Source: Vicugna vicugna (lineage: Eukaryota). Taken from it: DNA of 64,000 bases. Of the stretch, positions 986-63,800 are shown one piece after another. A program made the position numbers and the translations under genes. The first letter of the stretch is position 1. Every line of letters begins with the position of its first letter. The notes beneath the pieces are model-generated. The model was given only the letters and a program-made list of their open reading frames with translations. It made no database searches and had not been told where the DNA came from. The stretch lies in the NCBI GenBank assembly GCA_013265495.1, contig MU057654.1, positions 235,203-299,202 on the forward strand, given 5' to 3'.

Positions 986-1284
986 AACTTTGCTTTTTAT
1001 TGAAACTTTATAGCTGTACATTCCCATTTCCTTAGCTATGCATCTTAATCCACACTCTTGGAACTGCCACATTTCATATTAATGCTGTTTCATATTAAAT
1101 AATGTATATATCTGGTCCTGCTCATGAGCTTTCTAGTCTTTCTTTCTCTGTATGTCAACCAGTCTGCTCCCAACAGTGATGAGATTACAGCACCACAGAA
1201 CAATTATGGTTCCTGGCAATGTCGATCCAATCCACAGGACTCTCCTTTTGGATGGCTGGAGGAGTCATGGTAATTACAATGGAT

Positions 1285-1520
1285 ATTGCAAATATGTATT
1301 CAGCACTGAAGTTGCTGTGCATTGCTCTGAGTGCTTTCAATGTAGTGTTTCATTTGATCTTCACTGTACTCTTAAGCAGCAGGTACCATCCCGATTCCCA
1401 CTTAACACAAAAGAAACAGTGAGACTCAGAGAAAGGAAAATGTTTACTGAAGAGCACGCACCCTGCAACTAAAGGTACCCAGGGATAAACCCACACCTGG
1501 AACCACTGTCTGTACTGAGC
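1285..1520 (-). mobile_element. MIR SINE (part of the duplicated unit)
   Basis: Decayed antisense MIR core (tttcatttgatcttcac...gaaacagtgagactcagagaaagg). Confidence 0.6.
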
Positions 1521-1944
1521 ATTCTTCTGTGTTAAACTGAGGTCAGCACAGGGGAAGAGACTCACCCAAGGTCCTGTGGTTCAGCATGGGCACAGGCCTT
1601 CTGAAGCTAGCCTTTTGTCCAGCAAGCCTTTTATTGCTTTCTTATCATATAGACTCTTTATCTAAGGCTTAGTTGGAAACTGCCGCTTCAATTATCAAGC
1701 CAGAAGGTAAAAGAAGGGGACAGAGAATAACCTGGAATAAAAGCAAAGTATTTTCTTTTCTCTCTCAAAATTTGTGTAATTCGTCCTACAACACAGAAAT
1801 GACACCAAAACTCATGCACTAGGTAAATGTCTGTACGTTTCTCTTCCTAGGCTGCATTTCTAGGTGCTCTCTATGACAGACATGTTCCTTGATTTATTTA
1901 AAAGTCATCTCTTTCATGGAGAGAGGAGCAGGCTGGGTAGTACT

Positions 1945-2130
1945 AACGTTTGTCCTAGTCCTACAATGTGCCATATGTTTCCACAGGGTTTCTCCTTTTT
2001 TACCCACCAGAGCCCTGTGAGGAAGGTTTCATTGTTTCCATTTTATGGATGATAAATGGTAGGCCCACACGATACTTTTCCAAGATCATGCATCGAGTGA
2101 GGAGCAAGAATGGAGTTCTCTCTCTTTCCC
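1945..2130 (-). mobile_element. MIR SINE (part of the duplicated unit)
   Basis: ccctgtgaggaagg...ccattttatggatgataaa...ccaagatcatgc. Homologous MIRs lie at about 14970, 36365 and 51495. Confidence 0.6.
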
Positions 2131-2698
2131 TTCCCACAATGTACCCATCAGCTTCCCTTTTCAAGGATGAGTTTCCAAAGCTTAAGGACTGATTGTTTTA
2201 AACTCTCCTGGAATTGTGTCCACATGGCTATTTACTCAACACAATACTCATTGTGAGATGAAACCTGGTACCGGATGGTCAAGCTGGTCCCTGAAGTTTT
2301 AAGCAAGGCTGACGTGAAAGCAGAACTGCTGCTCTCCAGAGGATGACCCGAGAAAAGGTTACTGACATTTACACAAAGATTTTAATCAATAGGTACTTTA
2401 TATTTTATTTAATTTAATCCTTATGGCTATTCAAGTTGCTGTACATTGTTGACATTATTCAGATCAGGGTACAGGACTTATGAGAAGTTAGGCAAATTTC
2501 CCTAAAGAAATGAACCTTGTAAAATTATGCTCAGGAACTCAAAATCTGGAATTACACAGAGTGCCAATGTTTTCCTGCCCTACTATGTAGGCAGGCAGTC
2601 ACTGAAGCTAAGTGTATTGTTTAGGGGTTCTCTTTAACAATGAGCTTTACCACTTTTATATCTGAATATATGTATATATACGTGTGTGTGTTGTATGG

Positions 2699-2700
<2 letters not shown>

Positions 2701-2792
<92 letters not shown>
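2701..2792. repeat. Compound microsatellite (TC)18-(TA)n-(AC)n
   Basis: Read directly from the sequence. Confidence 0.98.
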
Positions 2793-4472
2793 TGTATATA
2801 CCTAAAAACAACATCCGTATAGCATAATGTAAAAGTACAAAGTATATAAAAGGGTGCAAGAAAATATTCACAACATGTATTGCAGATATGTTGTTACTAT
2901 CCTCCATCTCTTAACCAACAGAAAAATGAGCCAAAGATTACAACAAAGAATGTGCATTAAAAGCAATATAAATACCCAATGAAACACTTAAAATCATGCC
3001 TAAATATAACTGATGAAATGCCAAATGAGCTCTCATTCTAACTGAAATAAGAAAATATCAACACAGTTGTAGAGAGTGATCACAAGTTTGTAAAAGAAGA
3101 CATTTTATATTTGCATAGATATCTATATATTTTATTAAGATATATACTGGAAAGAATCAACAGATATGTATCAGATGGTTAATAATGAGTATTTTCTGGT
3201 TGGGGTGGGATTCTGGGCTAGACTATTAATATCCTGATACATTTATTTGGCAAAATGAATAAAATCTCCAAAATGCTATTTTCAAATACTAGTTATGGAA
3301 CACTCTTTTCAATAGAACAATGATTACCCTTATTCTGAAATGACTATTTTCCCTTCTTTCTTATTTGAAAATATAATTCAAATTAAGAGTTACCATATCT
3401 AAAGGGCTACAACCCCGTGCTGAGAAAGCCAGTGGACAAAACTGCCTAGGGTCAGAACACAGAAGCCACAAGGTGCACAGATGTAATTCCCCCAGAGCAG
3501 TGGCCTGGATCTCAGAAGGGGTTGGTGCCAGCATATGTCACCTCCCTAAAGGAAGAAGGGACCAGTCACAGCTCAGTAGTGGTAAGTCCAGCGTGGATGC
3601 CAGACCACCCTTTCCCAGGAGAGTATCCATAACATGACTGTGCAGGGGGAAAGGAGGCAGATGCAGGATCAGTGTGGGGCGGGGGTCTACACTGGACACA
3701 ACATATTTGCAACATAATTTACAGACATAATTAGTATGCCTGACATATAAGGAAATCTGACTAGCTAAAAGATTCATGTTCACATGTACCAACAAGTAAT
3801 TCAAAGAAATAAAAAGAATGACAATTAAAATATAAGTAAAATTGCTTCCATGCCAAGAATTAAAGAAATGTAATAACACGATACAGAACATAATGTACAA
3901 CATGACCTAAATTTTGAAGAATATATATTTTCATAAGAACATAAAATGTCATTTAAAGATATAAACAATCTTGCACAAATTTATCTGAAGAATATTAAGA
4001 AATATATCAGCTGGTTTGACATAGAAGTTGAAGACGAGAACTGCAAGATAATTCCTCCTATAAAAGCATACTTCTCCAGTGTGGGGGAACATGTACACTG
4101 ATTTTTAATTAGCAAAATAGCTAAGATAAAATTATGACAGCATGGGATAAACCTAGTTGTGCCTATATTTACAAAAGTAATACTGAAAAATATATATTCA
4201 GAATATTAAGAGATGTTAAATATACTGTAAAATTAAAAGGCTACACAGAGCTCTATATTTATAACCACATATATACAAGCACTCCTTTGTTTAATTTGAG
4301 AGAACACCCAAAGAAAACTTCTCGTCAAAGGAGTTAATATCCATGGATAACCATTTAATTCTTCCTTTGCCATATAAACCCCAGAAAGTTTCCTCCAGTG
4401 GGCTTCAACAGGGAAAGCCATCTTTCCTTCTCTCCTTCCTTGGTTGGCCTCTTGCTAAAGTGATGGCCAAGC

Positions 4473-4505
4473 TGCAGTTCTGGATTTGGTCACCAGATGG
4501 CACTG
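4473..4505 (+). promoter_or_regulatory. CTCF binding site with upstream U motif
   Basis: TGCAGTTCT-N5-TGGTCACCAGATGGCACTG matches the CTCF core (CCASYAGRKGGCR) with one mismatch, plus a TGCAG-type upstream motif at 5-bp spacing. Confidence 0.7.
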
Positions 4506-4846
4506 ACCTCCAATTCTAATTTTACTTTCCAAAGGAAAAAATAATCATTTGGCAAAATGAGCAAATTGTACTTTAAATAGAGGTTATGAAACAGCACGTA
4601 AAATAAAATCATGATTAATTCCTTATGCTTAGCAATAAAAGCTTTTCAAAGCATTCCTTCAAAACTTTGACAATGCAATGTACTGATTTCTTCATTGTAA
4701 AAATCAATGAGACTTAAAGATATTTTTTAATATAAGAAAAATTGGAGAGGAAATTATCTACATATACCTCAGAAAACACTTTTTATACCAAGAATTCTCT
4801 TGAAGTATGATACAGATAAAATAAAAACTAAAAACATCATAGAACA

Positions 4847-5474: not shown

Positions 5475-6338
5475 AAAAAGATCATAGAACACTATAGGAT
5501 TGCAATTAACCTTATGAAAAGATATCCAACAACAATCAGTATACAAATAAAAGTTCTGGCAATTTTATCCTCAGCTAAAAAAAGGCAAATTGCATGATAA
5601 AGTTTGCTGTTATCCTATTCTCACACACAAAAAAATGTGTATATCTGCTCATACATATTGTGCATATGCATGTATTGTGTACATATATGTTTGAGAAAAG
5701 CATCTGCAGAATATGCTCCACACCATTAACAAAGGATATCTCAGCAGGGAGAAATAAGGGATACAGGATCATTTCATTTTCTACATATACATATCTTTAT
5801 TATTTGATTCCTATCAACTACAAACATACATTAGTTTTATAATTGAGGAAAGTAAATGAGATACATTTTTGAATACAGGAAAAAAATTGCTATAGTCCAA
5901 TCCCAGAAACTTATTTCATATAAATCTACTGGGCTAGAAAGGAATTCACAGCTGTTAAATTCAAAAACAAACAAAAAGCAATGTTTGCACATGATGTATG
6001 CACAGTTTAATCCTAGTTGCTGTTAATACACCTATGTGTATGTGCAAGTATATGCATAAAGCAAATGTGTCTAAAAATATATAACCAAAAATAGTACATT
6101 CTCACCACCCCCAAACAGATACACATTTCTTCAGAGACCTTCACCCTGGCAGCTTCCTCTTCATGAAACAGAGGTGGAACTTCCTGCCAGAAGCTCAGAG
6201 AACCAGGCAGCACCTGATTCTGCAGGAAGGCCTGCCTGTACCATTCAAACCTCTAGAAGGCCGCGTTTGTGGGTCAGACTAGAGACTCCTCCCTCCCCAA
6301 ATCCTTACTTACTTAGCCACCTCGCAGACATTGAGAGA

Positions 6339-6371
6339 TGTAGTTTTGGCTCTGACCAGAAGGTGGCGATC
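6339..6371 (+). promoter_or_regulatory. CTCF binding site with upstream U motif
   Basis: TGTAGTTTT-GGCTC-TGACCAGAAGGTGGCGATC. Paralogous to 38253-38285. Confidence 0.7.
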
Positions 6372-9300
6372 ATCTCAATTTGCTACCTTCGCTGCAAAGA
6401 AAATATATCAATTTTTGCAAACAAGCAAATACGAAATGAACAGTCCTAACTATATTTGAAAAAATTATATATACATACATATATAAATACTGAAAGTGTA
6501 GTAGTTTCATTTGGTGATGACTCCCAAAGCTGAGTCTCTCCTATCCATTTATTCAATACACATATGTGGGGCACTGCTAGCTTGAGTCTGTTTGTCAATT
6601 TCACTCTTCTGTCTGATCCCCAGACTCTCATTTCCAACCACCTACAGGACATGTTAACATTAACTCGGAGAAAGACAACTACAATTCCTTTCTCCGTGTG
6701 TGGAGTGCATGCGTGCATGTGTGTGTGTTAAACCGAAGAGTTAAGAATCAGACAGGATAGCTCATTAAAGAATAAAAAGAAAAAGGACAAATATCCTTTT
6801 CTCTTCCCAATCCCATCAGAAAACATATACTATAACAAAAACAACAAAATAGCACCACAGCCCATAAATGTGTGTACATTTCATGTCTTGCGTGTATATT
6901 TTCATATGCCATCTATCACAGCTATGCTATTTATTTTACATCAGAATCTCCTCATTTATGGAAGGAAGGATTCTGGGACTAACTTTTCTAACATTTCTTA
7001 AAGGCTCAGTATGTGCCAGATATGTTCTATAGATCATCTGATCTTCTCCATAAAAATTCTGTTAGCAGGATTTTTGCTACTTAGCAATATCTATTTCTTT
7101 TGTTATTATTTTCCATCTGTACATATGATAAAATATTATATATGTGCATATGATAATAAAGATATGATTATCTATGAAAACATTGTAGTGATGAAAGGGG
7201 TGAGGACAAAGCGAAAAGGTCACAGCCAACATCTGTCCCACCTCAGCAGTCACCAATGCTGGGAGCAACTTGGTGCTACAGGGTCAAGTAAGCCACCACT
7301 GTCCCTTGCCTCCCTACCCTACCTGACAAACACCCCATAACCAAAACCTCATGAAGGATAATGGTTGGACTGAGGGCAAAGCCAACCTGAGATACTGCAT
7401 ATTCTCAAGGGGACAGACGAAGGTGCTGGACTAGGCAAAGCCCAGTGCAGTGGGAGAATGACCAGACCAGTTATGCTGAGATAAAGGCCCTAAGTAGTTT
7501 TGTTCGTGTAGTGCTCAGTGAGCAAATTTGGATGCCACTATGCTAGAAGATAATCAAGTTGGAACTCTCAGTTTAATGCTTAATGTATAAATTCATATTT
7601 TCAAGTAGAAAGTCTATTATTGCCTTTTCATTGTAGATATTCACCTCTTCACTTTAATCTAGCACCCTGTATTCATGCCATCTGCAAAAGCATTTCTGTT
7701 CTCAGTGCATGAAAATTGATTGTCTCAATGGGAGAACAAGGATGCTTTGTATTCAGCCATATATTTTGAGAATTTAATAGAGAATATTCATAGTGAAACT
7801 TTTTTTTGGTGAAACATCCCTTAAATAAGAATGAAGACAACCTAATTTTGTTCTCAATTTGTATATTCTGAATTTATATTACCCACAAGCAAATATATTG
7901 TCATTCAATCTTAAATTGGTGGTTGCATTAAAATTAAAATATTTAATTTGAAGAAACATCATGCCATAAGAAATTATGTTTTTGTATGCTTCCTGCTTAG
8001 TTTTGACAATGAGATTTTTTTTAACTGGTGAATTTTTTTTTCAGGGTCAAATGAAAAATAGGTTTCTTTCTCTTGTAAACACTGTCCATGTATTAGCAGA
8101 TAAAACTTTATAAATTAAGGTAAATGGTGTCCTGATTCTTTCATGTCATAGGATTTTAAAAATAGTATTTAAGGCTCAGCAAAGACTAGTGCTGACTTTC
8201 TATAATCTAGACATCCGGTTCACATTTCCACCTTCACTATGTGAACTTAAAACTGAGATTTGCATGAATAAAAGGTTACTTATTTCTAGTCCTTTCTCTG
8301 TCACATCGTTTCTGCCCTTGATTTCCTGATCTATGAAATGCAGATAATCACTCCTTAATGAAAAGGGGACTGTGGTCATTTTACAAGAGCCTATAAACAG
8401 CATCTCTGTATAACACAAGAGAGTGGCATTTATACTACTCATAGCAGGTAAAAAATGAGAGCCATTCTTATTTTAGTAAGGCTTTTGAAGGCCAATTATG
8501 GTGTCCTTATTTTTCTCTTTGAATAATATATTTATCCTGGATAGTCCTGCTTTTCGGTAAACATTTTCATTACCTTCCATAATAACTCAAGCAATAAACT
8601 CTTCTCATCTCCTATTGTCTGAAAGAAGTATGTAATGTCAGCTTCTTTGTGTTTCTACTCAATTTCATTCCTTCTTTTTCTACTTCTAATTCTCTGATTG
8701 ACTTTTTGCTTATCTAAAGATAATTGCAAAATATTAATCAAATCTGCCTTTAGTCTTTTGATTTTAGCTTATCTGGTTTTGGTATCTTATATTCCTTCAA
8801 TTAATGTTAGTTTACAACAGAGGATAAAAATTGGTGATTTGAGGAACACCATTTTTTCCACACAATGTTTAATTTTTAAAATAGTTTCCAGCATCTGTAA
8901 ACTGCAAGATTTCATAGATAAATGCAGCTCCCTGGCTTATTTTGAAAAATGAGGTTTGGTCTCTCAGGGCCTACATTTTTACATTCCCTCAAGGAAACAA
9001 GTGGCTGGACCTGATAGCAGTTTCCTCATCCCATTCACCACAGTTCTTACCACTCTCTATTGTATGACCCTCCCATACACACGCTGACACAGAATGTTTG
9101 TTAGTTTCTATTTTACTATTATTGCTATTGCCTTTCTTACAGTAAAAAAAAAAAATTGAAATATTTCTTGCTTCTACTTAGTCAATCAAAACTGAAGGAC
9201 CAAAAAATAGAGAGTGTTTTTCATTTCAAGAAACCTGGAGAGAGAGAACATTTACCTGTAGAAGCAAAGGCTCTTCCCAAGATTTTTATAGACACCTACC

Positions 9301-14389: not shown

Positions 14390-14429
14390 GATATCCTCTC
14401 CTTTTCTCAACACCCTCGGATAAGTCACC

Positions 14430-15170
14430 CTACCACTTTGAAATGGCCCTGGTCCTCATTCATAACATGATGGGTTCAACTTTCTTCTCACAGATTCTCA
14501 GACATACTTCAGAGGAATTATGGTGTCAGGCATCCTTTATGGGAAGATGGAGGAGGTAAGCCAAAGCTTGGATCAGCATTTTTTCAGGTCAGTTACATTC
14601 CAGACACTTTCTATGGGTTTTCTCATTTATCCCTCACCAAGATCCTGTGAGAAAGATGCAGTGAGCCTTATTTTACATATAACCCAACCAAGGCGAAAAA
14701 TGTCATCCATCCTGTAGGACACAGGGAGGGGTTCTGGGTCCCAACCCATAACACCCAGGAGCCTCCCATTTGGAAGCTTTGTGGGATTCCAAGCTCAAGG
14801 ACTGTTTGGTTATCTTAACTTGCTGGATTGGCTCCATGGGTTATATCACGCAGGTAAGTGGCCTTAGCATTGGTGGCCTTGTAATTTAGCTGATCCTCAA
14901 GTTCCTGAGGTAGTTTTGTAAAAGCACAGGCTTTATAATGGGGAAGAAAACCTGGGAGAAGGGTGAGAAATTAACTATTTTAGAGTCCTACCTACCTCAT
15001 GCCAACATCTTTTAGACTCTATATCCTAACCACATTCAGTGTAGGCCAGACCTATAATTCCTATTACAGATGAGGAAAGTAAAGCAAGGACAAAGAGTGC
15101 AAGATTCTTGAAAGCTGAACCAACCCTAAAACATAAGCTCCTTTCACAACATCCTGCTGCTTTTCCAGTA
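14430..15170 (+). repeat. Ancient tandem-duplication unit, copy II (partial, diverged)
   Basis: cagaggaattatggtgtcaggca (14510) matches cagaacaattatggttcctggca (1196), followed by the same two MIRs in the same order. Confidence 0.65.
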
Positions 15171-31420: not shown

Positions 31421-31434
31421 AAGACAGCATGATG

Positions 31435-38252: not shown

Positions 38253-38285
38253 TGTAGTTCTGGCTCTGACCAGCAGGTGGCAGTC
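38253..38285 (+). promoter_or_regulatory. CTCF binding site with upstream U motif
   Basis: TGTAGTTCT-GGCTC-TGACCAGCAGGTGGCAGTC. The core CCAGCAGGTGGCAG is a full consensus match. Confidence 0.8.
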
Positions 38286-40549: not shown

Positions 40550-41099
40550 ATTTTTTGCCTAGATTTTATCATTTTGTTGATATTGTAAATATAATCTTTT
40601 CCTCCATCATAATTTTAATCTGGCTATTTTTACATTAAAGTTCATTATTTTATATATTTTTAAAAGCCATTTCCAAATAATATACCTTGGATTACTTGGT
40701 TTATACTCTCATGCTTTCATATTTTTCTTATTTTTAGAGGTTCCTTTTAGAAAGAGCCCTGCTTCCTAAGTATTTAAGGGCATCTTTGCACATTCTTGCC
40801 ATTTAACAAGAGAAAAGAAGAAGAGAAACATAAGGCTGAGTAGTAGGGAAAACGAAATAATAAATTATAGGATGTAAAATAGAGAGTTCTTGACAATGAC
40901 ATCCTACTCACTTATTTTTACAGGTGACATAATGGAGCCCAGAGCGGTTCAATGACTCACTCAATGCTTTATTCTTCTGTAGCAGCTTGTCTTTTCAGGA
41001 CTCTATGGGAATCTTCTCTGGAATTAGAACTAAAACAAAGGGAAAGGGCTTTATTTTCTTACTGTGTCACCTGTATCATGCACATATGGTAACTAATGC

Positions 41100-47400: not shown

Positions 47401-48499
47401 TGTTTTTTAATTAAAAATTTACCAACTGACCCAATACCACTACCTGAATAATCCGTGTTGTCCACTGATTAGAAATGACAAGATTATCACATTTAAAACC
47501 TTCTTGGGACTGAGTTTTTATTCTGTTCCATTCAATTGTATCTTAGTTTTTCCACCAATCTTATCCTGTTTTAATATTGTTGTTCATAAAATATTTAAAT
47601 AGCTGAAAAATAACATTTCTTCCATTATTTGCTCTCTAGAAAGTCAAGAATTGTAACAACAACAATAACAAAAACAGTAAATGTAGCTAACATTTATTGA
47701 GCATTTGCAATGCATCTGACACTTTACTTACATTATGACTCTTAATCTTCAATTACAAATAATGCTGTAGATACTACTCTTATCCCCATTGGAAAGATGA
47801 GAAACTTGAGATACAGAAAACTAAACTGGTTTGATGTGGAACCTAGTCTTAAACTCATGTCTTATCACAGCAAGTTCATAATCTTAACCACTGTTTTATT
47901 AAAATGAACTGTAGGAAATAGTCAAAATTGGAGCATTTCTAACAAATAAAAATGTCAATTTCTTATTGTCTAACCTAATATACAGTATTTTGTATTTTAG
48001 AAATGAGGCCATCCAAGAGAAAATGTGCCCATGGCCCAGTAATTAATAACAAGTCTGCTATCTGGATCCATGAACTTCTAACTCCCATCTTCTAACCAGG
48101 AGGGTCATTATTGTCATTTATTTCTTGAACTCAATAAGAAGCTATTTCTCTGATGACCCACTAGAAGGTAATATAACAGAAAGAAAAGCACATGAAAGGA
48201 AATGGCATAGTGGTTATTTTTCTCATTACCTGTATTTATCAGGTAATCCATCCTACAACTCAGAAATTACACTGAAGCTCACAGATGATCAAAAATGCAT
48301 TGACATTCCACTTGATGCCATTATACTTTCAAATATTCTCTATAATAACTTTGCTATTTAATTTATATTAAAATCATATCTTTAATGGAAGAAGGGAGAC
48401 ACGAGTAATACTTGTTCAAAGACTACTATGTTTTAGACAATAGTAGAAGTATTGCAATTTTCACCTTGCATTAGCTCTGTGAGTGCACAGTGTATTATA

Positions 48500-51385
48500 T
48501 TTACTAAAAATATTTTCCACAACATAAACAAAGAAATATATTTTATTTACAAAAAGCATTTTAGGAAACAGCTTGCATAGAATTATCTCAATTCTATTTT
48601 CAATCACATAATTAAAAAGGAGATAGTCATTCAGTTTTATTTGCTGATTTGATGGTGACTAACAAATATGCATTTCTTTCTCTCCCTCTGTTTTTTATTC
48701 ATTCAACAAACATTTACTGTACACCTAGTAAGTGTAAGGCACTGTCAGACCAAATCATATCTTCATCACAAGCCTATTCTTTAGAGTTCCAGACCCTGTT
48801 ATTCAACTACAGCATGATGTATATTCACATGTATAACTAGGCATGAACAATTTATTAAGCCAATTGAAATGATACAGTCCTTGAGCTCTGAAAGTTTACT
48901 ATATAGATAGAAGTTCATGTCATAGTAGTAGTGGGAGAGTCTAGGGTTTGGAAATAGGCAAACATAGGTTAAAATTCCTGTTCTGCCACTTATTTAAGGT
49001 ATGCAAACTTAGAAAGTTTACTTAGCATCTCCAAGACTTAACTTTCTAATCTGTACATGCAGATTGTTATCTGTGTTTTGAAAGAAAGTCTATGGAATGC
49101 AGTACGTCCAACCACCTTGTCTGAAAATTTAACATATTAATTTTTTTCTTACTCTATCTTTTCCCTTTCTTAGTAGAAATGACTCTGCCATGAGTTCAAT
49201 TGCATAACTATATCATAGAAGACGTTCAGAAATGTAACAATGAAAGGAAAACTTATTATATTACGAATGTAATCCAATGGCATTTCTGTGTAATGGAACA
49301 AGTTGGCTGATAGAATTCAATCATTATATTTTTCCTAACACATTTGGATGTTCTAGATTAACATGATGCATTTGTATGGCTTGGGAGGTTCTAATATTCT
49401 TTGAGCCTCAGAATGTTAAGATATAACAGAAACATAATGAATAATGTTGGATCTGCATGAGGGACACAAGAACAAGAGTCAGGAAATCTATATAGGTCCC
49501 AATTCTTAAGTGATACTTTATGACAGAATAGAACACTCCCATACAGTCAGAAATGTGGGGATAAGTGAGATCCCCATTTCTGCAAGAATTCTGAATTCTC
49601 AGAAGGGAAGCAAGATGTTCTCTTATGTGTAAGGAATCAATTTGACAAGAATTATCTGTAAGAAAATTAGGCCTCTAAAGAGTAGTCATCCAATAAATGT
49701 CTTTTATTAATTTTATATTTTAAATGCCTTTTGTGCTTGGCAAGGTGTCTGGTAGAATTTAGAGACCACTCCAAAACACATGAAACATGCCCATTAGAGA
49801 ACAAGTTAAGGGAATGCTCACTATGATAACTCTTTTATGCGGTCAATTTATTTAATTATGTCAGCAAGCCTCTCAGAGAAATTGTTCTAAAAGGGGATTG
49901 TTCGGAGACAGTGGTGTTCTATAAATACACATACACAAGCATACACATGTTGTTTGTATCTCTGCTCCTGTCTACAATTTTCTACATGCCTATCTACAGT
50001 TTCATTGCTGCCCTCTTGTTGGGGATTTTCTTTTCTATCTCTAAATGTGGGCTTTTATCAAAGGATTTAAGCTCACTTTTAGGTGAATGTATAAAATCAT
50101 ACCTGAAATGGGTTCCCTTAATTGTAGCCACAGCTCACGTACAGCCTTTTTCACTGGATTTTGTAGTGAGAATCTGTTGGCAATTATGGAATACTGCACC
50201 CCATGGATACTGATCAAATTCTCCCTACCAAAATGAAAGAAGTCAGTGAAGGGTATGAAATAATTAGAGAGAAAGAGGCCATTTCATTCTTTTCTTTCCA
50301 TTTCAAAACCACGAGACCAATCTCACCACTCTTCAAAACAAAAACAAAAAACAGTCAGAAGGCGTCATATGCAGATGTTAGGCTCTAAAACTCATTAACT
50401 ACGTATTAGCATCTCTAGGAAACCCCTTCTTTTTTAACATTTGAAATATAGCCTGAAGCTTGTGTGTCTCTTTTCTGAGAGGCCCCGATATAGGAAAGGC
50501 TTTTTCATGGGGTGGGCCAGAGAGTCATGGTTCATCAGATCTTGAGAGCCTTTACAAACACATAGTCTTTCCAATATTCTAACAATCCAAATATTGACAG
50601 TACTTGGTTATTTACTGCTGCATAACAAATAACCCCAAATACAGGAGCTTAAAACATCAACAGGTTAGTCTTATTATTTGTCATGATTCTCTGAGTTAGC
50701 TAGGTTGTTCTTTTGTTTCAGGTGGGCTCAGCTAGAGAACTGGGATGGTCAAAAGATCGAAAACAGCCTTACTTATGTATTGTGGATTGGTGCAAGCTAC
50801 TGATGGGAGCAAAGAAGCTCAGTTCTCCACATGGGCCCTTCCACATCACCACTTTTGCTCCTCACAGCATGGCAGCTGACATCCAAAATAGGAGCATTCT
50901 AAGAAGCAAAGGTGAAAGATGAAGACTTCTTAAAGCACGGCCTTGGAAACTCTACATCATTTCTGCTGCATTTGCAAAATGGTCAAAAATAATCACTAGG
51001 ACAACCCAGACTCAAGGAAAGGGGAAATAGACTTCTTAATGGGATTGAAGCAAAGTCAAATCCCAAAAGATCATGTAGAATGAGAGAGATTGTTGCAGTC
51101 ATCTTTGGAAACGTGGTCTACCACAGCCAGCAGTCTGAAGCGCCCTCTCTCCCAGATCTCTACAATGACTCTTACCCCATCATCCACTTCAGGTTTCTGA
51201 CACAAAGATTCCACCTCTTCTCCTCATCTTCAACCAGAAATAGTCATGCTTTCCTCCCTCCTAGATATTTGTATTCTGTTGAGGAGTCCTCAGGCTTCAG
51301 TCATTCATACTATAAAGTAAGTACTACTTGACACAATGACTTAATGTTCAGATTCAATTGCCCCTCATTCAAGTTCAAGTTTTCA
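48500..51385 (+). repeat. Ancient tandem-duplication unit, copy V (distal half)
   Basis: atttgatggtgact (48647) matches atttggtgatgact (6509). Collinear with 53900-57700, e.g. gagagaaagaggcc at 50267/57091. Confidence 0.75.
50601..51125 (-). mobile_element. MLT1 (ERVL-MaLR) solo LTR
   Basis: Ends tacttggttatttactgctgcataacaaataacccc and gcagtcatctttggaaacgtggtctaccaca. 5-bp flanks gacag/gccag resemble a TSD. Confidence 0.8.
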
Positions 51386-51439
51386 CTTGAAATCTGGTAC
51401 TCATCTAAGTTGGGAGGTTTGGTGGAGAGGCTTGATCAT

Positions 51440-53230
51440 TATACTATGTAGTTTATGTCATAGTCATCTCTATAATGGAAGGAAGCTACGTGAAGTTAGA
51501 TAGCAACATCTGGAAGTCTTAGCACATGCCAGCACTTTCCACAGATTGCCTCATTTTCTCTTTGGAAAAAATCCTTTAAGGAAAGCCACATAATTCGTAT
51601 TTTTCAGATGATTAATCTCACGTTTATAGAAGATAAGTAACTTTTCTAAGGATGAGCACATAATAAATGGCAATAACAGGATTCTAAATCCTTCTCGTCA
51701 TCTGCTTTTCTATTAGATGTGTTTCCAGGGTTCACGGACTGGTTGTTTTAAACTTGCTAGCTGAAGTGTTCAGGTTAGATGAAAGAGAAGGGGTAGGGAG
51801 AGAGAAAAAATGACATCAACAGAGGATGTAAAATTATGGCCTGATAGAGGAACATCATATGGGTACCTTTTAAATATCTTTTAATAATAGTGAGAACTTT
51901 AGAGGCTCAGATAAGTTAAATATATATCCCAGATCACCAAGTGTGTAAATATGAGAGCAGGGATTCAAAACTAGGATTGTCACTGAAGGCCCTGCCCCTG
52001 ACACTGAGTCCTGTATTTCCCAGTTCTTTAATTTTGTAGACTTCTAATCTCCTGCTTAGCTGACTTTCCGGTTTATACAATTAGGAGAATGGTGAATGTG
52101 CTATTTGGTCCAAATTTATTTATGTTGAACTTTATACATACACAAAATTTTAACACATTCTACATGACAAAAATCATCATGAATACAATTAAGAACTATT
52201 AAAAAACTTGAGAGAAAATATCTCTAAAATGTCTTATAAAAGTAGTCAATATTCTTATTACATAAAGAGCTCTTACAAACCAACAGAGGAATAGCCTAAG
52301 GATATGAACACCCTATGTGTGTGCCTATATACATGTGTTAGCATAATAAATGCAAATAAATTATCAAAAGATTTTAAAATCAAAGGATGTCTTTGGAGGA
52401 AGAAGGAAATATAGACAGATTCACCTTGTGCATGTCTGTATTATTTAAATTTTTTTACAACAAGAGTGTATTTCTGTCACATGTTTTAGTTCTGAAAATG
52501 ACTGGAGATTCTAGGTTCTAGGAATATTTCCTTTACTAAATAGACTTCCACACAGATCTATCTACTGGATTAGAGCAATAATCCTTCCCTGACTCCTTCT
52601 TTCCATCTTTTGTCTAAAATATATATGTTTCATTTCTGGCTCTGATCAAGAGCTGAAATTCCACTGTATTTTATAAAATTCCTCCAATAAATAAATCTAA
52701 TTTTTACAGGGAGAAAAAAAATATGGCAGACATGAATTTTCAAGCCACGTAAAGCACTCAAGTACATACAAATTGTTGCTTTGTCTACTTTTCTGTATTG
52801 TAACTGAATGTAATTTCCAGTTTGAGTCCCAAGTCTGCTGTGAGTAGGAAGTATAATGTCTTCAATTCAGGATAAATACAGTTCCTTCTGGGTTTCCTTA
52901 GTTAATGTGTGATAAATTCAATTATATGCCAATCATATTATATGTCTCTACTTCTTATCACATGACATCTAAATTCTCAGAGCTTATATGTCTTAATTTT
53001 TAATGTCCTTGTTGACATCTCCCAAGATATTTGAATTCCCATCTAAACCTCAAACATGGTTCATATTGCCGTGTTTCAGCCTTGCATCTCAGCCATGAGA
53101 CTGGTTCAGGACTGTAGGCACTCTTGCTCAACTAACTTTTGTGCCCTACTGAGAACACAGCAAAACCAGAATGTGTTCCACACCTCTGAGGGATGTGGGA
53201 AACTCAGTAGGGCTACCTTGGGCCTTCTCT
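51440..53230 (+). repeat. Ancient tandem-duplication unit, copy VI (CTCF motif decayed)
   Basis: 51716-51754 matches 2166-2204 at 32/39 nt. ttctggctctga (52634) occupies the CTCF slot. Confidence 0.7.
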
Positions 53231-54349
53231 GACCCTGATGTAGAATTAAGCCATCTCTATTATACTTTTCCCACATTATGGTGACACCTAGAATTCTTGT
53301 GAAGCTATGGTGTCGCAGGTATCCAGACAGGGAGCTAGAAAGATCACAGGGTTAATGGTATATGTGAGGGAGCAAGAACTATGTCAGGTAATATTTCATC
53401 TTGCCACATTTCCTATCCCTAGGAAATCCTTGTTCCCCAACAAAGAAAATATATTTTTCATGTAGGTGTCACTCCCTCAAAGAAGGTAGGAATAGAATTG
53501 CTGTCCAAAATTTGTTTAGAATAGCAATCCTCATGTGCAAATCAGCAAGTAGATGTTGTCTTTCCCAGGGTCCCCTTCTGTCAGGGATAAAGCTGGATAC
53601 TGAACAGATTTTTCACTTCCCTCATTTAAAGGTGGTTACTTGTTCTTCTAGGCCTAACTAATGCCAGAGAAATCATTCTTACTTACTCCTTTCATTCATG
53701 ATTCAATGATGAAATATAAGTCCCCCACCTCTGGGACATAAATTCCAGCATAAATTTATTTAGTTCACATTGAATTGATTGAGAAAATCCTAAGGTGACT
53801 GAATTTATCTTCAATTGGCAAGATTAGGTTTCCAACAACTGGCAGAATGGGGCTCAAAATGCATACTAAGATCAGCTATATAAAAACAGAGATTTCTTTA
53901 CCAGCTGAGTTTTATATCCTGAAAATTTATACCCACTAAAAATCAATAAAAGATATTTCTAAAGAGATTATAAAACTGTACAGTATGATCTCAAATACTT
54001 TTGAAAATGAATATGCATTAAAAAAGGTTAGGAGGATAAACACTCAATTTCACTTCCTGGTGACTCTCAAAATCTATAATTCATCCAATAATTCATTAGT
54101 TCAAGAAATATTTATTGGGTATTATTATGCATCAGGTACTGGACATCCAATTCCATACTTCATCCCATAATATATTTCTTCTAAATTTCAGGCTCATATA
54201 GCAAACTTTCTACTATGTATGCCCATTTAAGGAAGATAAATAGTACTAAGCAATTGAATGTCTATGGCCCCCACATGGACTGTACCAAACAAGTTTAGAC
54301 CAACGTTGGCCCTGAATCCTAAAAGCTCACCATGTAAAAGGGAGGCCAT

Positions 54350-54600
54350 GTGTCAGAATGGAGAGAGCTTGGGTTTTTAAGTCAGACACAACTGGGTTAG
54401 AACTCCAGCTCTGCCTCTTATTAACTGTATAATCTTGGAAATATAATTAACTTCTCTGAGCTTCACAGAGCATATTTAGTGAAAAGATGAGTAATGAAAG
54501 ATATTATGGTATCTACTTTACAGTATTTTTCAGCATTTAAAGAGAAAAAGTACGTAAAGTGCCTAACAGTTTCTGACTCATATTAGGCACCTAGCAGAAG
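54350..54600 (+). mobile_element. MIR SINE (paralog of about 48915-49090)
   Basis: agtcagacacaactgggttagaactccagctctgcc...taacttctctgagcttca...gtaaagtgcctaacag. Confidence 0.75.
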
Positions 54601-54757
54601 TTTATTTCCCATCCCATGCCCTCCCTTCTGTGGCAGAGGTGGCACTGCCATAAATGAAATAGCACAAATATATGATAAAAAGCATTTGGAATGGCTAGAA
54701 TAGAAATAAAAACCAACATACATTTGTTATGTAAGAAATAAACTATATTCTTGGTTA

Positions 54758-54840
54758 TATTTGGCTAAACCACAAGAAATTGCTGATTTTCAAACATTTT
54801 TGACTTACCAAACAACAATTTCATATCTTTCAATCTAATA
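54758..54840. mobile_element. MADE2-like Mariner MITE
   Basis: About 80-bp quasi-palindrome tatttggctaaaccacaagaaattg...caatttcatatctttcaatctaata with TA ends. Confidence 0.7.
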
Positions 54841-54875
54841 GAATGATTTACATATTGAATTGAAAGAGGGGGACA

Positions 54876-55020
54876 GTGTGGGGAGGATATAGCTCAAGTG
54901 TTAGAGCACGTGTTTAACATGCAGGAGGTCCTGGGTTCAATCCTCATCATCTCCTCTAAAAATAAATGGATAAATAAATTACCTCCCCCCAAAAAAACAG
55001 CAAAAATAAAGTTAAAAAAA
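54876..55020 (+). mobile_element. Vic-1-type camelid tRNA-derived SINE
   Basis: ggggaggatatagctcaagtgttagagc...gaggtcctgggttcaatcc...aattacctccccc and an A tail. TSD gaaagagggggaca at 54862-54875 and 55021-55034. Confidence 0.88.
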
Positions 55021-57806
55021 GAAAGAGGGGGACAATCTTCACCCTTATTCTGTTGAATTGGGTTTTTCCCTCTCCTCTTTCTGTATCTCAAGATAGACAT
55101 CAGGATAGCACAGAATATATATGTCTCTGCTATCCTGTTAACCCTAGAAAGACTATAGGAGCACAAAGCTACAGTGATAGATCTGGCAGGCAGGATGCTG
55201 GATAGAGGGTCAGGAGAGACGCCAGGATTCTAGGACTGGAAGCATAACCTATGACAGAACCTTGATTGAGTCACTTCCCCTTTGCTAGCCTAGACAGATC
55301 ACCAGAATGAAATTGAGGAGCCTTCCCAGACATCCTGGAGTGTTGTGGAAACCCATGAAAACCTAAGCTGGGCAAGCACTCTAGGTTCTCAGCTGTGAAA
55401 ATCTGTTAAGGCCAAGGAATTAGTTTAACAGAAAGTAATTTGCAGCAATAACAGAACAGTACACATTAGGCACTCGAATAGCAATTATTTGTGAAATGTC
55501 CACAAATACTTTTAAAACATAAATGACACACAGATGGACATGGATACTGCTGTTTACAAAACTAAGGAAATTCAATGTGAACTCTACCTGCTAGTGTGCT
55601 ATGAGCTTTCCATGTGATGTTTCCTTTAATACTTAAGGAAAGCCTGTGGGGCAACATTTATTATTTCAATTCTTCAGATGGATATTTTTACATTTCATTA
55701 ATTGAATCTTAACTAAGTGACAGAGCCCAGGATTCACATTTGGTCTTTCTATTTCCCCAATCTATGCTCTTTCCTCTCTAGGACATTGGCATGGGGCTAA
55801 TCAAGTTCTTGGTGTGTCCAGCCCTAGAATTTTTATCCCAATGACAAGCACGTCTGTTACGAACACCACTGATAAGAATTTGATTGAGTGCGTGCTTGTG
55901 GCATATGACACAGTATGCAGATGGAACAACTTGAGCAAAAACATGGAATTCGAGGGAATGTTTGGCTTGCTTGGGTACTGGAACTGGACTGGAAACTCTG
56001 CAAAAGGGAGTTCTTCAGACTAGGATGGTCTCATAAGTCAAAAACCCAACTATATATTTCAGGCAGTTGTATAGCACAACTGGAAGCTAAATGAGTTGTA
56101 AAAATTATTTGAGGCTTAATGTTCTTCACTATCAGTTTCACATTCATAAATTAGTCCAAATTTTAAAAGCAAATTTAAACAGAAATAGAAGTATGGGTCA
56201 GAGATGCAACTGGGTCTTTATATCGGCCTAGAGCAGATGGGCAAAATTTGGAGGAAATAGCCTTCTCTTTGCTGTTATCCTCTAGTTCAAATTGCAAGTT
56301 GAATTTTCTCATCAGAATTATGGACCATGTCCTCCTTGTTCTTCATCAGACTCCCTTGGGTTAATAATGGACTGGGAGAGGAAAGCATCATCAGTGGTAG
56401 GGTGTGGGAGGTGTTTGTGTCTGCGGCTGTCCAGAGCGAGTCCTGCTGTTATTTTTCTCTGTGTATGAATGTGTGTATGTGTGTATGTTTTGGCCTCGAG
56501 TAATCCAGTGTCGTTCTCCTTCTTTGTTATTGCCAGTTTCTCAAAGTTTCTCCTTTGTTATCTAATTCATGTCTTTGTCAAAGAAGTTCATGCAAAATTT
56601 AAGTGGATATAAGAAATCATATTTGGCCTGGCTTCCTTGGCAGTTCTGCGTAATATGTCCTCGATGTAATCTTTGCTGACTGAGGAGTGGACAAAATGTT
56701 GATAGACATTATAGTGACAAGCTAGGATATCTGCCAGATGGCACATAACATTCTAGAGCTAGAAGTCCAAGAGTAAAAGGGAGAGTTTTAAAGTCAAGAT
56801 AGTGGAGTTTCCAGGCAGCCAATATTTGAATGCTGACCTCTATTTAAGAAAAATGGAACTTTATTTGTTTGTTTTCCCTTGTCCAGGGTATCCCCCATTA
56901 TTAATTCATTTATTTCTTTATTCACTCATATTATTTCCAACCCTGATAGTATCTAGAGTTCAGTACTTTTCACTGGTGGTTCGGCTGACATTTTGCTGAT
57001 GTGTTTAAGTTGCTATAACAACCCTTGTATATTGGTATCATTTTTCCTTAACAAAAGCAAGTAAAGAGTTCAAAATATAAAATGGCTAGTGAGAGAAAGA
57101 GGCCTTTTCATTCCCTCATTTCTTTTCCAAACTCACTCCTACAAACAACTTCTCAGAACAATCCTGGCAGTGAGAGACATCATTTGGAGACATTAAACTC
57201 CAGACCCACCACCTGTCCCTGCTGTGACTCATAATATAAACATAGACCCTCTGTGTAGCCTGTTTCCTAGAACTTTAAAATATAACTCACAGCTGGTGTC
57301 TCCCCTTCTGAGAGGCCCCTGTGTATGAGAGGCCCTTTCATGGAGTGAGCCAGATAGCTAATGGTACAGCAGAGCCTTGCATGAATTTCCAATCTTAAAA
57401 GGCTTCACAAATTTATGCTTTTCTCCAAATATATTAGTACAATCTGAATCCCCATCTCTCCCAGATCCCTACAGTGTCCCATGGGACATCCCCATCATCC
57501 ACTTCAACCTTTTGCCACAAAGATCCCATCCCTTCTCCTCACCTACATCCAGAGGCAGTCATGCTTTCCTCTCTCTTAGGCTTTTGTATTCTGTTGAGGA
57601 GTCCTCAGGCCTCAGTCATTCACACCTGTGAATTAGGCGCTGCTTGACACAACAGAATGGTCAAATTCAATTGTCTCTCATTTAGGTTTGGTACTGTGCA
57701 TTTTTTGCTTACTTTTAAAATATTCTTTAGAAAGAAATAAGAGTTATACGTATTTCTTAAACATATTGTCCCTAGGAAGACTGTAGCTCATTGAGAATGA
57801 AGATAC

Positions 57807-58422: not shown

Positions 58423-58571
58423 ATACCAGTCCCTAGGTTTGTGAATTCCAAAAAAATAGATAATGAACAAAAAGAACAGAAGACCCAATACAGAATTTGG
58501 CAGGCTGACCATGGAGTGGACATGCTGAAAGGATTATATTGGTTGTTCAATATCTGTGTTGACATCTAGCC

Positions 58572-58772: not shown

Positions 58773-59334
58773 ATCTAGTAGACGGTGTAGCCCGCATATG
58801 CTTGTACCAGAATATCCAAGCAATCAATATGAAAATCCTAAGTGTTGGTTAAGAGGTGCGGCTTTTATTCCTCAATTCTCTGCCTATCATCTCACTGATT
58901 CATGTTATAAATGGATACTTACCATTGGTTAGCGCTCAGCATTTTTGTCGAGTTGATACTGAGGTTCCATGGGTACTTGTAAATCACCCCAATATCCTTT
59001 GGAAGCTGGAATCACTATCTCTTCACACGTGGAGAAAAAAGGTTCAGGATACTAAAAGATAACAGGGAAAAAAGTTTCTATTTCCTAACACTTGGCACCA
59101 CTCTTATAAATAACTCTTCAGTGTAGTAACAACACTTTGAAGTAATATTCTAGACCAGCCACCTATTTCTGCTGCTACTGCAAAATGCAAACGTAAATAA
59201 CCTTTAGATTCATTTTCTAGTTGGCAGTATTCTTGCTTTCTTTCAGACTGTAATTGTGAGCAATATTATGGTAATGTTAGAATAGGACCTCAAGTTTTGA
59301 ATGTTGAATTAATAATAAAATAAAATTAAAAGAC

Positions 59335-59625: not shown

Positions 59626-60705
59626 AAGGTAGTAAGAATATCAATGATAATAATAAAGATTTCAAGATTTACCTAATCACGCTGCTATAATTTTTGCTCT
59701 CAGTTTAGGAAATCATACATTTGACATTTAGGCCCATTGGCCACTCTTTACATATATATATATACATACACTGTATGGTTTTTGCCTGTTTGCCTTTCAT
59801 AGACTGATTTTGCTTCTAAGTTAGACGGAGGGGTATGCTTTAACCTTCTCCCAGAGAGATGTTATCCCCCTTTATTTTCTTCTTAAGCAGACCTTCTTTC
59901 AGACATTATTTCAGTCTTGAGTATCCACTGATTAATTTTCAGTTTGATCACATTGCCCACATTGGGCCAGATTGGACACACATTTCTCTTACATCACTTC
60001 ATCCTAATTTTCTGGAGCTGGGCCTAAGTTCTGCTATGTGGAGTCTTATACAGTATGAACACATTGTTAGGGGAAATCTCCTGGTCTCTGAAGCTCTTGT
60101 CCAGGAAGGTATCTGCTTGAGAAGTCTCTATCCCATCTGTTGCTTGGTCATCTGTTTATATAAGTGGCCCTATAGATATTGGAATCAATCATCCCAAATA
60201 CATAGTCCTTTGCAACAAATTAGAGTTCCTCTAAACCTAGTGGTCTTTCTCACTATAGTCCTACATTTATCCACAAAGATGTTATACAGTCTGGTGGCTC
60301 ACTATGGTCATCTTCTCTTGCAGTTGCCTTTTCCTTAAAGTCCAGAGATCCAGTATATCTTAAATACAACTCCTTTTCCTCTTCTCAAATCTTTCTTAAG
60401 TTCTGTCACATCATGAGTTATATTTATGCCATCCATTCCTAGATTTTCTTTTAAAAAAATCTTTCTACATTTTCCCTAGGATTTCTGACTCCTGTTTTTT
60501 TTATCCTAAGCACCTAATGTGTCTCCTGGACACAGCTTAAATTTTGCTCAGTAAATGCAAGTGCATTTCAGCCCTGCTACCATAGGATTACTGCCAGTTC
60601 TCCTTGGTTGGAAAAATAAAGCACAAATCCTTCAATAATACATGTAGTGTTTATCTCCATCTTTAGTCCTAGAGTTGAATAACAATCAACATTCCCAATA
60701 GATTA

Positions 60706-63219
60706 CAAAAATCCTCAACAAAATACTAGCAAATTGACTCCAACAATGCATTAAAAGGATCATACACCATGATCAAGTCGGATTTATCCCAGGGATGCAG
60801 GGATTTTTCAATAGGTGCAAGTCAATCAATGTGATACACCACATTAACAAATTGAAGAATAAAAACCATATGATACTCTCAATAGACACAGGGAAAGACT
60901 TTGATAAAATTCAACATACATTTATGATCAAAACTCTCCAGAAAGTGTTCGTAGACGGAACATACCTCAACATAATAAAGGCCATATATGACAAACCTAC
61001 AGCTAACATCATACTTAATGGGGAAAACCTGTAAGCATTCCCTCTAAGATCAGGAACAAGGTTGTCCACTCCCACCACTTTTATTCAACATAGTTTTGGA
61101 AGTCTTAGTCATAGCAATCAGAGAAGAAAAAGAAATAAAAGAAATCCAAATTGGAAATGAAGAAGTAAAACTGTCACTGTTTGCAGATGACATGATACTA
61201 TACATAGAAAACCCTAAAGAAGCAACCAGAAAACTACTAGAACTCATCAGTGAATATGACAGTTTCAGGATAGAAAATTAATATACAGAAATCAGTTGCA
61301 TTTCTATACACTAGCAATGAAATAACAGAAAGAGAAATTAAGGAAAAGATACCATTTACCATCATGCCAAAAAGAATAAAATACCTGGGAATAAACCTAC
61401 CCAAGGAGGCAAAAGACCTGTATGCCAAAAACTGTAAGACACTGATGAAGGAAATTGAAGACAACATAAACAAATGGAAAGATACACCGTGCTCTTGAAT
61501 TGGAAGAATCAATATTGTCAAAATGGTCGTACCGCCCAAGGCAATTTACAGATTCAGTGTAATCTCTACCAAGTTACCAATGACATTCTGCACAGGGCTG
61601 GAACAAAAAATGTTAAAATTTGTATGAAAACACAAAAGACCTCGAATAGCCAAAACAATCTTGAAAAAGAAGAATAGAGCTGAGGGAATCATGCTCCCTG
61701 ACTTCAGACTATACCACAAAGCTACAGTAATCAAAACAGTATGGTACTGGCACAAAAATAGATACATAGATCAATGGAACAGGGTAGAAAGTCCAGAAAT
61801 AAACCCATGCATGCATGATCAATTAACCTATGACATAGGAGGCAAGAATATACAATGGAGAAAAGACTGTCTCTTCAATAAATGGTGCTGGGAAAACTGG
61901 ACACCTATCTGTAAAAAACTGAAATTAGAAGATTTCCTAACACCATGTACAAAAATAGACTCAAAATGGATTAAAGAACTGAATGTAAGACCAGATACTA
62001 TACCCCTCCTAGAGGAGAACATAAGCAGAAAACTCGTGGACATACATTACAGCAATATATTTTTTGAACCAGCTCCTGGAGTATTGGAATTAAAAGCAAA
62101 AATAAACAAATGGGATCTAACTAAACTTAAAAGCTTTTGCACAGCTGAGGATACCATCAACAACAAAAAAGACAACTTACAGAATGAGAGAAAATATTTG
62201 CAAATGATGTGACTGACAAGGGACTAATTTCCAATATATACAAATAGCCCATATATCTTAATATCAAAGAAACAGGCAACCCAATCCAAAAATGGGCAGA
62301 AGACCTAAACAAGCAATTCTCCAATGAAGACATACAAATGGCCAATAGGAACATGAAAAAATGCTCAGCATCGCTAATTGTCAGAGAAATTTAGAACAAA
62401 ACTACAATGAGATATCACTTCACACCAGCCAGAATGGCCATCATTGAAAAGTCTACAAATGATAGATGCTGGAGAGGGTGTGGAGAAAAGGGAACCCTCC
62501 TGCACTATTGGTAGGAACGCAGATTGCTGCATCCACTATGGAGGACAGTATGGAGGTTCCTTAAAAATCTGAAAATAGACTTAGCACGTGATCCACCAAT
62601 CCCACTCCTGGACATATATGCAGAGAAAAATAAAATTCAAAAAGACACATGCACCACAATATTCATAGCAGCACTATTTAAGACAGCCAAGACATGGAAA
62701 CAACCCAAATGTCCATCAACAGATGACTGGATAAAGAAGATGTGGTACATACATACATTGGAACACTACTCAGCCATAAAAAAAGAATAAAATAATGCCA
62801 TTTGCAGCAATATAGATGGACCTGAAAACTGTCATTCAAAGTGAAGTGGGCCAGAAGGAAAAAGAAAAATGCCATATGACATCATTTATATGAAGAATCT
62901 AAAAAATAATAACAATAATAATAAAGACACAAATGAACTAATTATTATTTTGATTTCTTGAATATGTGTAAGCAAATTTGACTGTCCTTTATGACTAGAT
63001 TACCACATTCTGTTTCTTATTTTGGAGTTGGCTTTATTCCTTTGATAACTATGTAAGTTTAAAAAGCTAAAGATCTAATCTGTTCTTAGAAACAATAATT
63101 AGTACATATATGAAAACTAAAAAAAGTGCAGTATACACTTTATATGTATTTACATGCAATATAATGTGTATATGCAGTTGAACTGTAATAATTCCACATA
63201 ATAAAACTGGAAGAAAAAA
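60706..63219 (+). mobile_element. 5'-truncated LINE-1 (RT to 3' UTR) with an atypical 3' tail
   Basis: Motifs [20 protein letters not shown] and FNKWCWENW, with stops and frameshifts. TSD aa(c/t)att(c/g)ccaatagatta at 60688-60705 and 63220-63237. Confidence 0.92.
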
Positions 63220-63499
63220 AATATTGCCAATAGATTATTATTCTTAAACTCTCAGGTTGTAAACTTATTTCCAAATTATTTGGGGGTTTGGGAAAACACT
63301 TTATTGTAGCTCTCATGTGTTTATATTATTCTCCTTATTTTTGGTCTTCTTTTAAAAATTAATAATTGATGGTAAGTATATGATCAGTTCCGTCAAACTG
63401 ATTGAGGAAATGGTCATATTTTTCCAGTCACTGGAGGCAGAGTTTGGGAAAGTATTATTCTAATAACCCAGTAGATTTTCTTATTACAGATCTCTGTCC

Positions 63500-63800
63500 A
63501 ATCCCAAGTCTCTCAAAGCATGCTTGTTGTCATCCTTCATACTAGCTTCCCTTTCAGAAGCCCTTTCTCTCAGAGGAAAGCAGGACATTTTGACAAGGCT
63601 GATTTGATGCGACCATTATGCCAGAGCTGCTCAAAAATGTCAGTGTTGAATCTCAAAAGACTGTTTTTGATTACCAAGCTATATACGTAACGACCATCCC
63701 TGACCCTCACCCTATCCTTGACCCTTTCTTCCAGAGAACAGACCAGCTTTTCTCTTAATATTTTACACTTTCAACGTCTGTGGTCAGTAAGTCTCTGTGG
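63500..63800 (+). repeat. Probable further diverged copy of the distal module
   Basis: ttccctttcagaagccct vs tccccttctgagaggcccct (57301), aatctcaaaagac vs aatcttaaaaggc, and ccagagaacagaccagcttttctct vs ccagaggcagtcatgctttcctct, all in the same order. Confidence 0.45.

What the first reader, a model, noticed from the sequence alone, without database searches (positions are those of the whole stretch)
1050..63800. Hidden ancient head-to-tail tandem array underlying the non-repeat DNA
Seen: short non-repeat anchors recur collinearly and on the same strand at about 1-7, 14.4-15.2, 35.7-39.2, 41-44, 48.5-51.4, 51.4-53.2, 53.9-57.7 and probably 63.5 kb. The module order is constant: splice-flanked block, MIRs, L1ME remnant, CTCF slot, L2 junction, distal block. 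The same MIR, L2 and L1ME fragments recur with the same unique flanks, so they were copied with the unit. Inference: this is the skeleton of an old tandem cluster (gene family, alternative first exons or insulator array) with no recognisable coding exons left. Repeat annotation alone would not reveal it.
Basis: partly seen in the sequence, partly recalled or inferred. Interest (0 to 1): 0.75.

Follow-up and report, generated by a model that had tools for sequence, protein, structure and literature searches.

The report
Ancient duplicated spacer DNA on X
This apparently gene-free stretch of a camelid X chromosome is built from very old, heavily decayed copies of one 4-6 kb piece of DNA, most likely a leftover of the duplications that created this placental-mammal-specific region, and three copies still carry a complete binding site for the genome-folding protein CTCF.

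Summary
The hidden array is real. After masking young L1, self-alignment gave 28 same-strand and 4 opposite-strand hits at score ≥3300, against 0 in a reversed control. All 29 module copies passed leave-one-out profile tests. A 3.7-kb core (old repeat fragments, block alpha, a CTCF block) recurs collinearly about eight times, mostly truncated, at 58-70% identity. Three units contain an inverted arm, so it is not purely head-to-tail, and the 63.5-kb copy is unsupported. No coding exon, BGW promoter, CpG island or RNA family was found. Unverified scan notes place the window between an NXF2-like gene and ARMCX2, in the eutherian-specific Xq22 cluster. Gene calls from other mammals span an LTR junction that postdates one duplication, so the array is older than camelids. 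Two patches at 81-83% identity look like later gene conversion. Three copies keep a same-orientation bipartite CTCF site with published geometry. Neutral survival of such sites is unlikely (p about 0.001-0.05 at the likely divergence), but binding is untested. Verdict: a duplication relic in a region known for expansion and conversion, possibly with surviving insulator sites. The scan held no look-alike on other DNA.

The parts
388..4600 (+). Unit copy U1a: lead block, old L1 fragment, MIR-like, alpha core (1660-1926), MIR-like, post-MIR flank, mid block, L1ME-like piece, CTCF block (repeat names recalled)
4473..4502 (+). Bipartite CTCF-like site 1 (upstream motif + linker + core) in a copy only about 50-61% identical to the others
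   Evidence: geometry as in PMC12885311
4657..6580 (+). Partial unit U1b (matches 37116-38538): L1ME-like piece, CTCF block, L2-junction block
6017..6420 (+). High-identity patch C6 (83.3% to C38 over 6151-6405, flanks about 66%), probable conversion tract
6339..6368 (+). Bipartite CTCF-like site 2
6720..7070 (+). Alpha copy with start of the adjoining MIR-like element
14392..14962 (+). Truncated alpha + MIR-like + post-MIR copy, cut on the left by a young L1 insertion
19300..19735 (+). Copy of the MIR-like + lead block (matches 34956-35476)
22336..22900 (+). Alpha + MIR-like copy belonging to the inverted-arm clade
34950..38540 (+). Most complete core unit (reference): lead, old L1 fragment, MIR-like, alpha (36079-36346), MIR-like, mid, L1ME-like, CTCF block, L2-junction block
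37921..38334 (+). High-identity patch C38
38253..38282 (+). Bipartite CTCF-like site 3 (best core match)
39045..39460 (-). Inverted arm 1 (alpha and upstream MIR-like piece); weakest arm
39412..40957 (+). Distal blocks 39412-39690 and 40640-40957, repeated at 45381-45645 and 46573-46794
40930..43565 (+). Unit U4: alpha fragment, mid, L1ME-like, decayed CTCF block (43243-43400), L2 junction; young L1 inserted at about 42.0-43.0 kb
45381..46794 (+). Second copy of the two distal blocks
47323..48720 (+). Unit U5: old L1 fragment, MIR-like, alpha (48121-48396), internal deletion, L2 junction
48805..49726 (-). Inverted arm 2 (post-MIR, MIR-like, alpha, upstream flank)
49951..50592 (+). Distal block beta (66% to 56941-57432) and preceding block
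50600..51125 (.). LTR-like insertion (MLT1 type, recalled; ends approximate) between beta and gamma in this unit only; dates the duplication
51131..51375 (+). Block gamma (80.6% to 57440-57688); disrupted in other mammals
51425..54125 (+). Unit U6: truncated alpha, MIR-like, mid, L1ME-like, decayed CTCF block (52528-52714), insert bounded by inverted repeats, L2 junction
54270..55525 (-). Inverted arm 3, split by a tRNA-derived SINE at 54880-54996
56474..57688 (+). Second copy of beta and gamma, without the LTR
58900..59197 (+). Third, partial beta copy

Best explanation
The window is a relic of repeated local duplication in the eutherian-specific Xq22.1 region, in the gap between the NXF5/NXF2-like gene and ARMCX2. 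Steps: (1) MIR, L2 and old L1 fragments landed in a few kb of unique DNA (inferred; names recalled). (2) That 3.7-kb core, one arm of it flipped into an internal inverted copy, was duplicated in tandem into units of about 4-6 kb (shown as shared junctions and collinear chains; mechanism inferred: unequal crossing-over or replication slippage between repeats). (3) An LTR, young L1s and SINEs then entered single units, and deletions trimmed them (shown). (4) Most of the DNA has since drifted neutrally (shown: alpha is no better kept than the MIR beside it). (5) Two patches were re-homogenised later by non-allelic gene conversion (inferred). (6) The CTCF site in the ancestral unit survives in three copies, probably because CTCF still binds there (inferred).
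For: Collinearity and junction sharing. Neutral decay: alpha core 39-73%, adjoining MIR 30-60%, post-MIR flank 33-62% pairwise identity, near star-like tree; K2P 0.4-0.65 for most paired segments. Age: P0001 aligns collinearly to 50956-51485 (LTR end, gamma, truncated alpha; tblastn E 3e-21) and P0002 to the LTR-gamma junction. The LTR is absent from the sister unit, so the duplication predates the split from those mammals. Conversion: C6/C38 are 83.3% identical against 66% in flanks (p=1.5e-6). They share a stem of 0.33 (98/100) with tips 0.12 and 0.09, so root-to-tip equals the other copies (0.35-0.46), while in the right flank they form no supported clade. Gamma has two deletions in P0001 and a SINE-like insert in P0002. 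Context: GLA and GLRA4, which flank the 2.3-Mb region, are under 4 kb apart in chicken and 10 kb in opossum, and no gene is listed in the 172-kb human ARMCX2-NXF5 gap (PMC1274310, section 5 read). Conversion of non-coding patches is reported there (passages). No coding or RNA signal.
Against: Placement rests on unverified AI notes. No genome or repeat library was available, so the genome-wide copy number of alpha, beta and gamma is untested. Trees rest on 170-390 columns near saturation. The left-flank tree also separates U1b and the reference unit from two other copies (93/94), so part of their similarity is ordinary later duplication. Global identities of 58-66% are close to the aligner's null (56.6 +/- 3.6%); significance comes from local scores and profiles. 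CTCF motif survival argues that not all of it is neutral. P0001 and P0002 are translations of non-coding DNA, so the cross-species comparison is indirect.
Confidence: 0.66

Rival explanations
1. A working insulator array: the unit was amplified and kept because it carries a high-affinity CTCF site, and the same-orientation sites at 4.5, 6.3 and 38.3 kb form a boundary between the NXF gene and the ARMCX cluster. This is compatible with a duplication origin and differs in why the array persists.
For: Three sites match upstream motif + spacer + core (3 found, 0.11 expected, 0 of 100 shuffles). The geometry (10-bp upstream motif, 5-bp linker, TGG-like triplet, core) is that given in PMC12885311, where only 13-15% of CTCF sites have the upstream motif and insulators typically do (passages). 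The 4.5-kb copy keeps a perfect match although only about 50-61% identical to its sisters. Simulated neutral survival in 2 of 4 lineages: 0.13, 0.047, 0.019, 0.005 and 0.0013 for 0.2, 0.25, 0.3, 0.35 and 0.45 changes per site; tree tips suggest 0.35-0.46.
Against: 2 of 5 slots are decayed and two further units lost the slot. The core motif alone is not clearly enriched (4 vs 1.31, 7 of 100 shuffles). The spacing was set from the sites before it was checked against the paper, and the core degeneracy is recalled. The simulation assumes a perfect ancestral site. Three sites explain under 100 bp of the array. No binding data.
Confidence: 0.2
2. The units are husks of a gene or non-coding-RNA array, such as lost ARMCX, BEX/TCEAL, NXF or histone-type units or alternative first exons. 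Alpha would hold a fossil start exon, and the CTCF block or gamma an exon.
For: Neighbouring families expanded by duplication (PMC1274310 and PMC7586669, passages). An ATG sits at the same place in 5 of 8 alpha copies, and an acceptor-like AG precedes it in 4. The C patch ends at a minus-strand acceptor-like tract, and C38 has a 34-codon ATG frame ending at a GT. One gamma copy has an AG-52 nt-GTAAGT arrangement.
Against: None of 295 frames in the repeated blocks reached a Pfam cut-off. Among 200 further frames there was one hit, on a MIR-like translation. BGW half-motifs are at chance (9 vs 8.8, 5 vs 5.9), there is no CpG island, and the histone stem-loop is at chance. Rfam finds only SINE tRNA heads and low-complexity hits. 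No shared RNA structure. Mismatches by codon phase are 6/6/6 in C and the indels shift frames. Three protein searches with C frames found nothing. The gamma donor is absent from the sister copy and the block is disrupted in P0001 and P0002.
Confidence: 0.1
3. The anchors are independent insertions of old dispersed repeats (MIR, L2, L1ME and an unrecognised family for alpha), and the order is coincidental.
For: Much of the unit is repeat-derived: 27 MIR-like hits, 20 plus and 7 minus. Alpha occurs in both orientations. The pair 7456-8173 / 19637-20651 is probably such a case.
Against: Alignments run across repeat ends into shared flanks on both sides. Up to eight segments are collinear over 3.7 kb. 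The same-strand excess is 28 to 4 (p=2e-5). The CTCF, mid, lead, beta and gamma profiles score strongly only at slots predicted by the chain.
Confidence: 0.04

Closest known systems
BEX/TCEAL(WEX)/ARMCX(GASP) 'BGW' cluster of Xq22.1-q22.2 (PMC1274310: section 5 and passages read; PMC7586669: section 8, passages and supplement passages read)
   Same: Same chromosomal region (by unverified scan notes); expansion on the eutherian stem; patchy conversion between non-coding paralogous segments; old L1-family fragments built into the duplicated units.
   Different: No BGW motif, CpG island or single-exon ORF in these units; the passages read describe genes and 5' UTRs, not a gene-free repeated unit in the ARMCX2-NXF5 gap.
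Tandem CTCF-site insulator arrays, e.g. clustered protocadherins (PMC7087399, search listing and start of abstract only) and upstream-motif insulator sites such as IL3 (PMC12885311, passages read)
   Same: Repeated units each carrying a same-orientation CTCF site with upstream motif and 5-bp linker.
   Different: No variable exon or promoter beside the site; only 3 intact sites, irregularly spaced; binding and insulation untested.
X-linked CTCF macrosatellites DXZ4 and FIRRE (recalled, no call)
   Same: X-linked, kb-sized repeated unit, CTCF sites.
   Different: Those units are highly similar to each other, and DXZ4 is CpG-rich; here units are 58-70% identical, AT-rich, truncated and riddled with later insertions.
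SNORD115/SNORD116 tandem arrays (PMC12429941, listing and start of abstract only)
   Same: Eutherian-specific non-coding tandem repeats with gene conversion.
   Different: No snoRNA or miRNA family and no conserved structure here.

Membership tests
BGW-cluster gene unit (BEX/TCEAL/ARMCX) | BGW motif with E-boxes in promoter or first exon | tested here: not met
   Two 15-nt halves of the consensus in Fig. S6 of PMC7586669 match at chance level with up to 3 mismatches
BGW-cluster gene unit (BEX/TCEAL/ARMCX) | Single coding exon with BEX/TCEAL or armadillo domain | tested here: not met
   142 frames >=70 aa listed; 495 frames scanned against Pfam, none of these families; frames under 33 aa, and of 33-44 aa outside the blocks, were not scanned
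BGW-cluster gene unit (BEX/TCEAL/ARMCX) | Location in Xq22.1-q22.2 | not testable with these tools
   Only earlier AI notes on the same piece, whose order agrees with Table 1 of PMC1274310
Ancient local segmental duplication | Collinear multi-kb paralogy running through repeat-flank junctions | tested here: met
Ancient local segmental duplication | Copies confined to the locus, not dispersed genome-wide | not testable with these tools
   No genome held, no repeat library
Ancient local segmental duplication | Shared with other mammals (predates the lineage) | tested here: met
   For one junction only: P0001 and P0002 span LTR-gamma(-alpha)
CTCF insulator site with upstream motif | Core motif plus upstream motif at 5-bp linker | tested here: met
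   3 of 5 slots
CTCF insulator site with upstream motif | CTCF/cohesin binding and enhancer blocking | not testable with these tools
   Needs ChIP-seq, Hi-C or a reporter assay
Macrosatellite (DXZ4/FIRRE type) | Homogeneous, high-identity tandem units (criterion recalled) | tested here: not met
   Tandem Repeats Finder, limited to periods up to 500, gives only short arrays; units 58-70% identical
snoRNA/miRNA tandem cluster | Rfam family or conserved hairpin in each unit | tested here: not met
   4 Rfam matches at E<=1: two SINE tRNA heads, two low-complexity; best fold z-scores not shared among copies
Alternative-first-exon array (protocadherin/UGT1A type) | Conserved exon with splice donor in each unit, spliced to a constant region | tested here: inconclusive
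   Splice signals not conserved; no RNA evidence could be obtained

The most novel reading that the evidence does not exclude
The array is the readable fossil of how a roughly 10-kb ancestral interval grew into the 2.3-Mb placental-specific Xq22 region: a CTCF-bearing, partly palindromic 4-6 kb non-coding unit was amplified first and provided both the recombination substrate and the insulator scaffold on which the BEX/TCEAL/ARMCX/NXF genes spread. The same unit would then be found around those genes and once near the marsupial GLA-GLRA4 gap, and its surviving CTCF sites would still bound the NXF and ARMCX domains.
Probability: 0.15. Interest if true: 0.7.

Novelty: new member of a known kind. 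Interest (0 to 1): 0.38.

Why it matters
Ordinary annotation shows this interval as anonymous spacer. If the reading holds, roughly a third of its non-L1 DNA records early-placental duplications, with junctions that can order the events in a region absent from marsupials. It gives three specific, testable candidate insulator sites next to genes linked to X-linked intellectual disability. It is also a caution: high identity between non-coding paralogues here can come from conversion rather than function.

Tried and rejected
Coding exons: Pfam on 495 stop-to-stop frames and three homologue searches with CTCF-block frames gave nothing usable; these searches are word-limited, so this is weak evidence. 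Atlas searches gave only scores <=0.80 or no hit. RNA genes. BGW motif and histone stem-loop are at chance. A scan of metagenome contigs for the CTCF-block 20-mer gave 6 loci of 61-67% GC; in a blastn against the window 2 of them matched, over only 22 bases, so all are treated as chance. Expression therefore remains open. The 63.5-kb copy was rejected. The inverted pair 7.5-8.2/19.6-20.7 kb was left out of the array as a probable dispersed element. Constraint as the cause of the 81-83% patches was considered and ranked below conversion. Literature: ten searches listed no paper describing this unit. The library lacks most subscription papers, and the supplement of PMC1274310 (conversion table) could not be read. 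Earlier scan notes held no look-alike.

Full report
Setting. The window is mammalian, 36% GC, CpG-poor and rich in L1, with tRNA-derived SINEs. No genome is held for it. Earlier scan notes, which I could not verify, call the genome a South American camelid. They put TCEAL2/6 about 194 kb, an H2B.W relic 129 kb, ZMAT1 and an NXF2-like gene 17 kb before the window, and a truncated ARMCX unit beside ARMCX2 49 kb after it. That order matches, reversed, Table 1 of PMC1274310, which lists no gene in the 172-kb human gap between ARMCX2 and NXF5. The same section reports that the genes flanking this 2.3-Mb region are under 4 kb apart in chicken and 10 kb apart in opossum. PMC7586669 dates the cluster's expansion between the marsupial split and the placental radiation (passages).

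Noticed in passing
window 13102-14407: Young L1 insertion with an 18-bp target-site duplication and a 5' inversion: a reversed 3' end (92% to 30262-31152) joined to a forward ORF2 piece (97% to 29288-29571).
   Followed up: partly
window 23500-32000: Nested L1s: a young element with long ORF2 frames (27.2-31.1 kb, assembly gap 29572-29766) inside older L1 sequence.
   Followed up: no
window 24510-24654 and 54880-54996: Two tRNA-derived SINEs, 77% alike; the first has an 18-bp target-site duplication and a tRNA-like head scoring 51 bits in Rfam.
   Followed up: partly
window 7456-8173 and 19637-20651: Inverted pair at about 69% identity, not in the unit chain; probably two copies of an old DNA transposon (recalled, untested).
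   Followed up: partly
window 52790-52925 and 53750-53892: About 135-bp inverted repeats bracketing 0.8 kb that is absent from sister units; possibly the ends of an inserted DNA transposon.
   Followed up: partly
window 38057-38158 (minus): ATG-started 34-codon frame ending at a GT donor-like site inside the C38 patch, frameshifted in C6; no homologue found.
   Followed up: yes
window 34724-35161 (minus): A 146-aa frame over two MIR-like copies matches Pfam PF22376 at E 4e-5; that model may be hit by MIR translations in general.
   Followed up: no
window 11919-12297, 15172-15422, 33851-34113: Three minus-strand MIR-like copies whose alignments extend 70-130 bp into flanks; may be a further duplicated module upstream of the reference unit.
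   Followed up: partly
window 52630-52660: The decayed CTCF slot resembles a reversed histone 3' stem-loop by eye; the motif search did not list it and was at chance overall.
   Followed up: yes
window 18509-18610 and 44144-44247: 74% identical 100-bp pair, L2-like (recalled), outside the unit chain.
   Followed up: no
window 58090-58420 and 58565-58780: An LTR-like element with a polyadenylation signal and a MITE-like element (both recalled) between gamma and the third beta copy.
   Followed up: no
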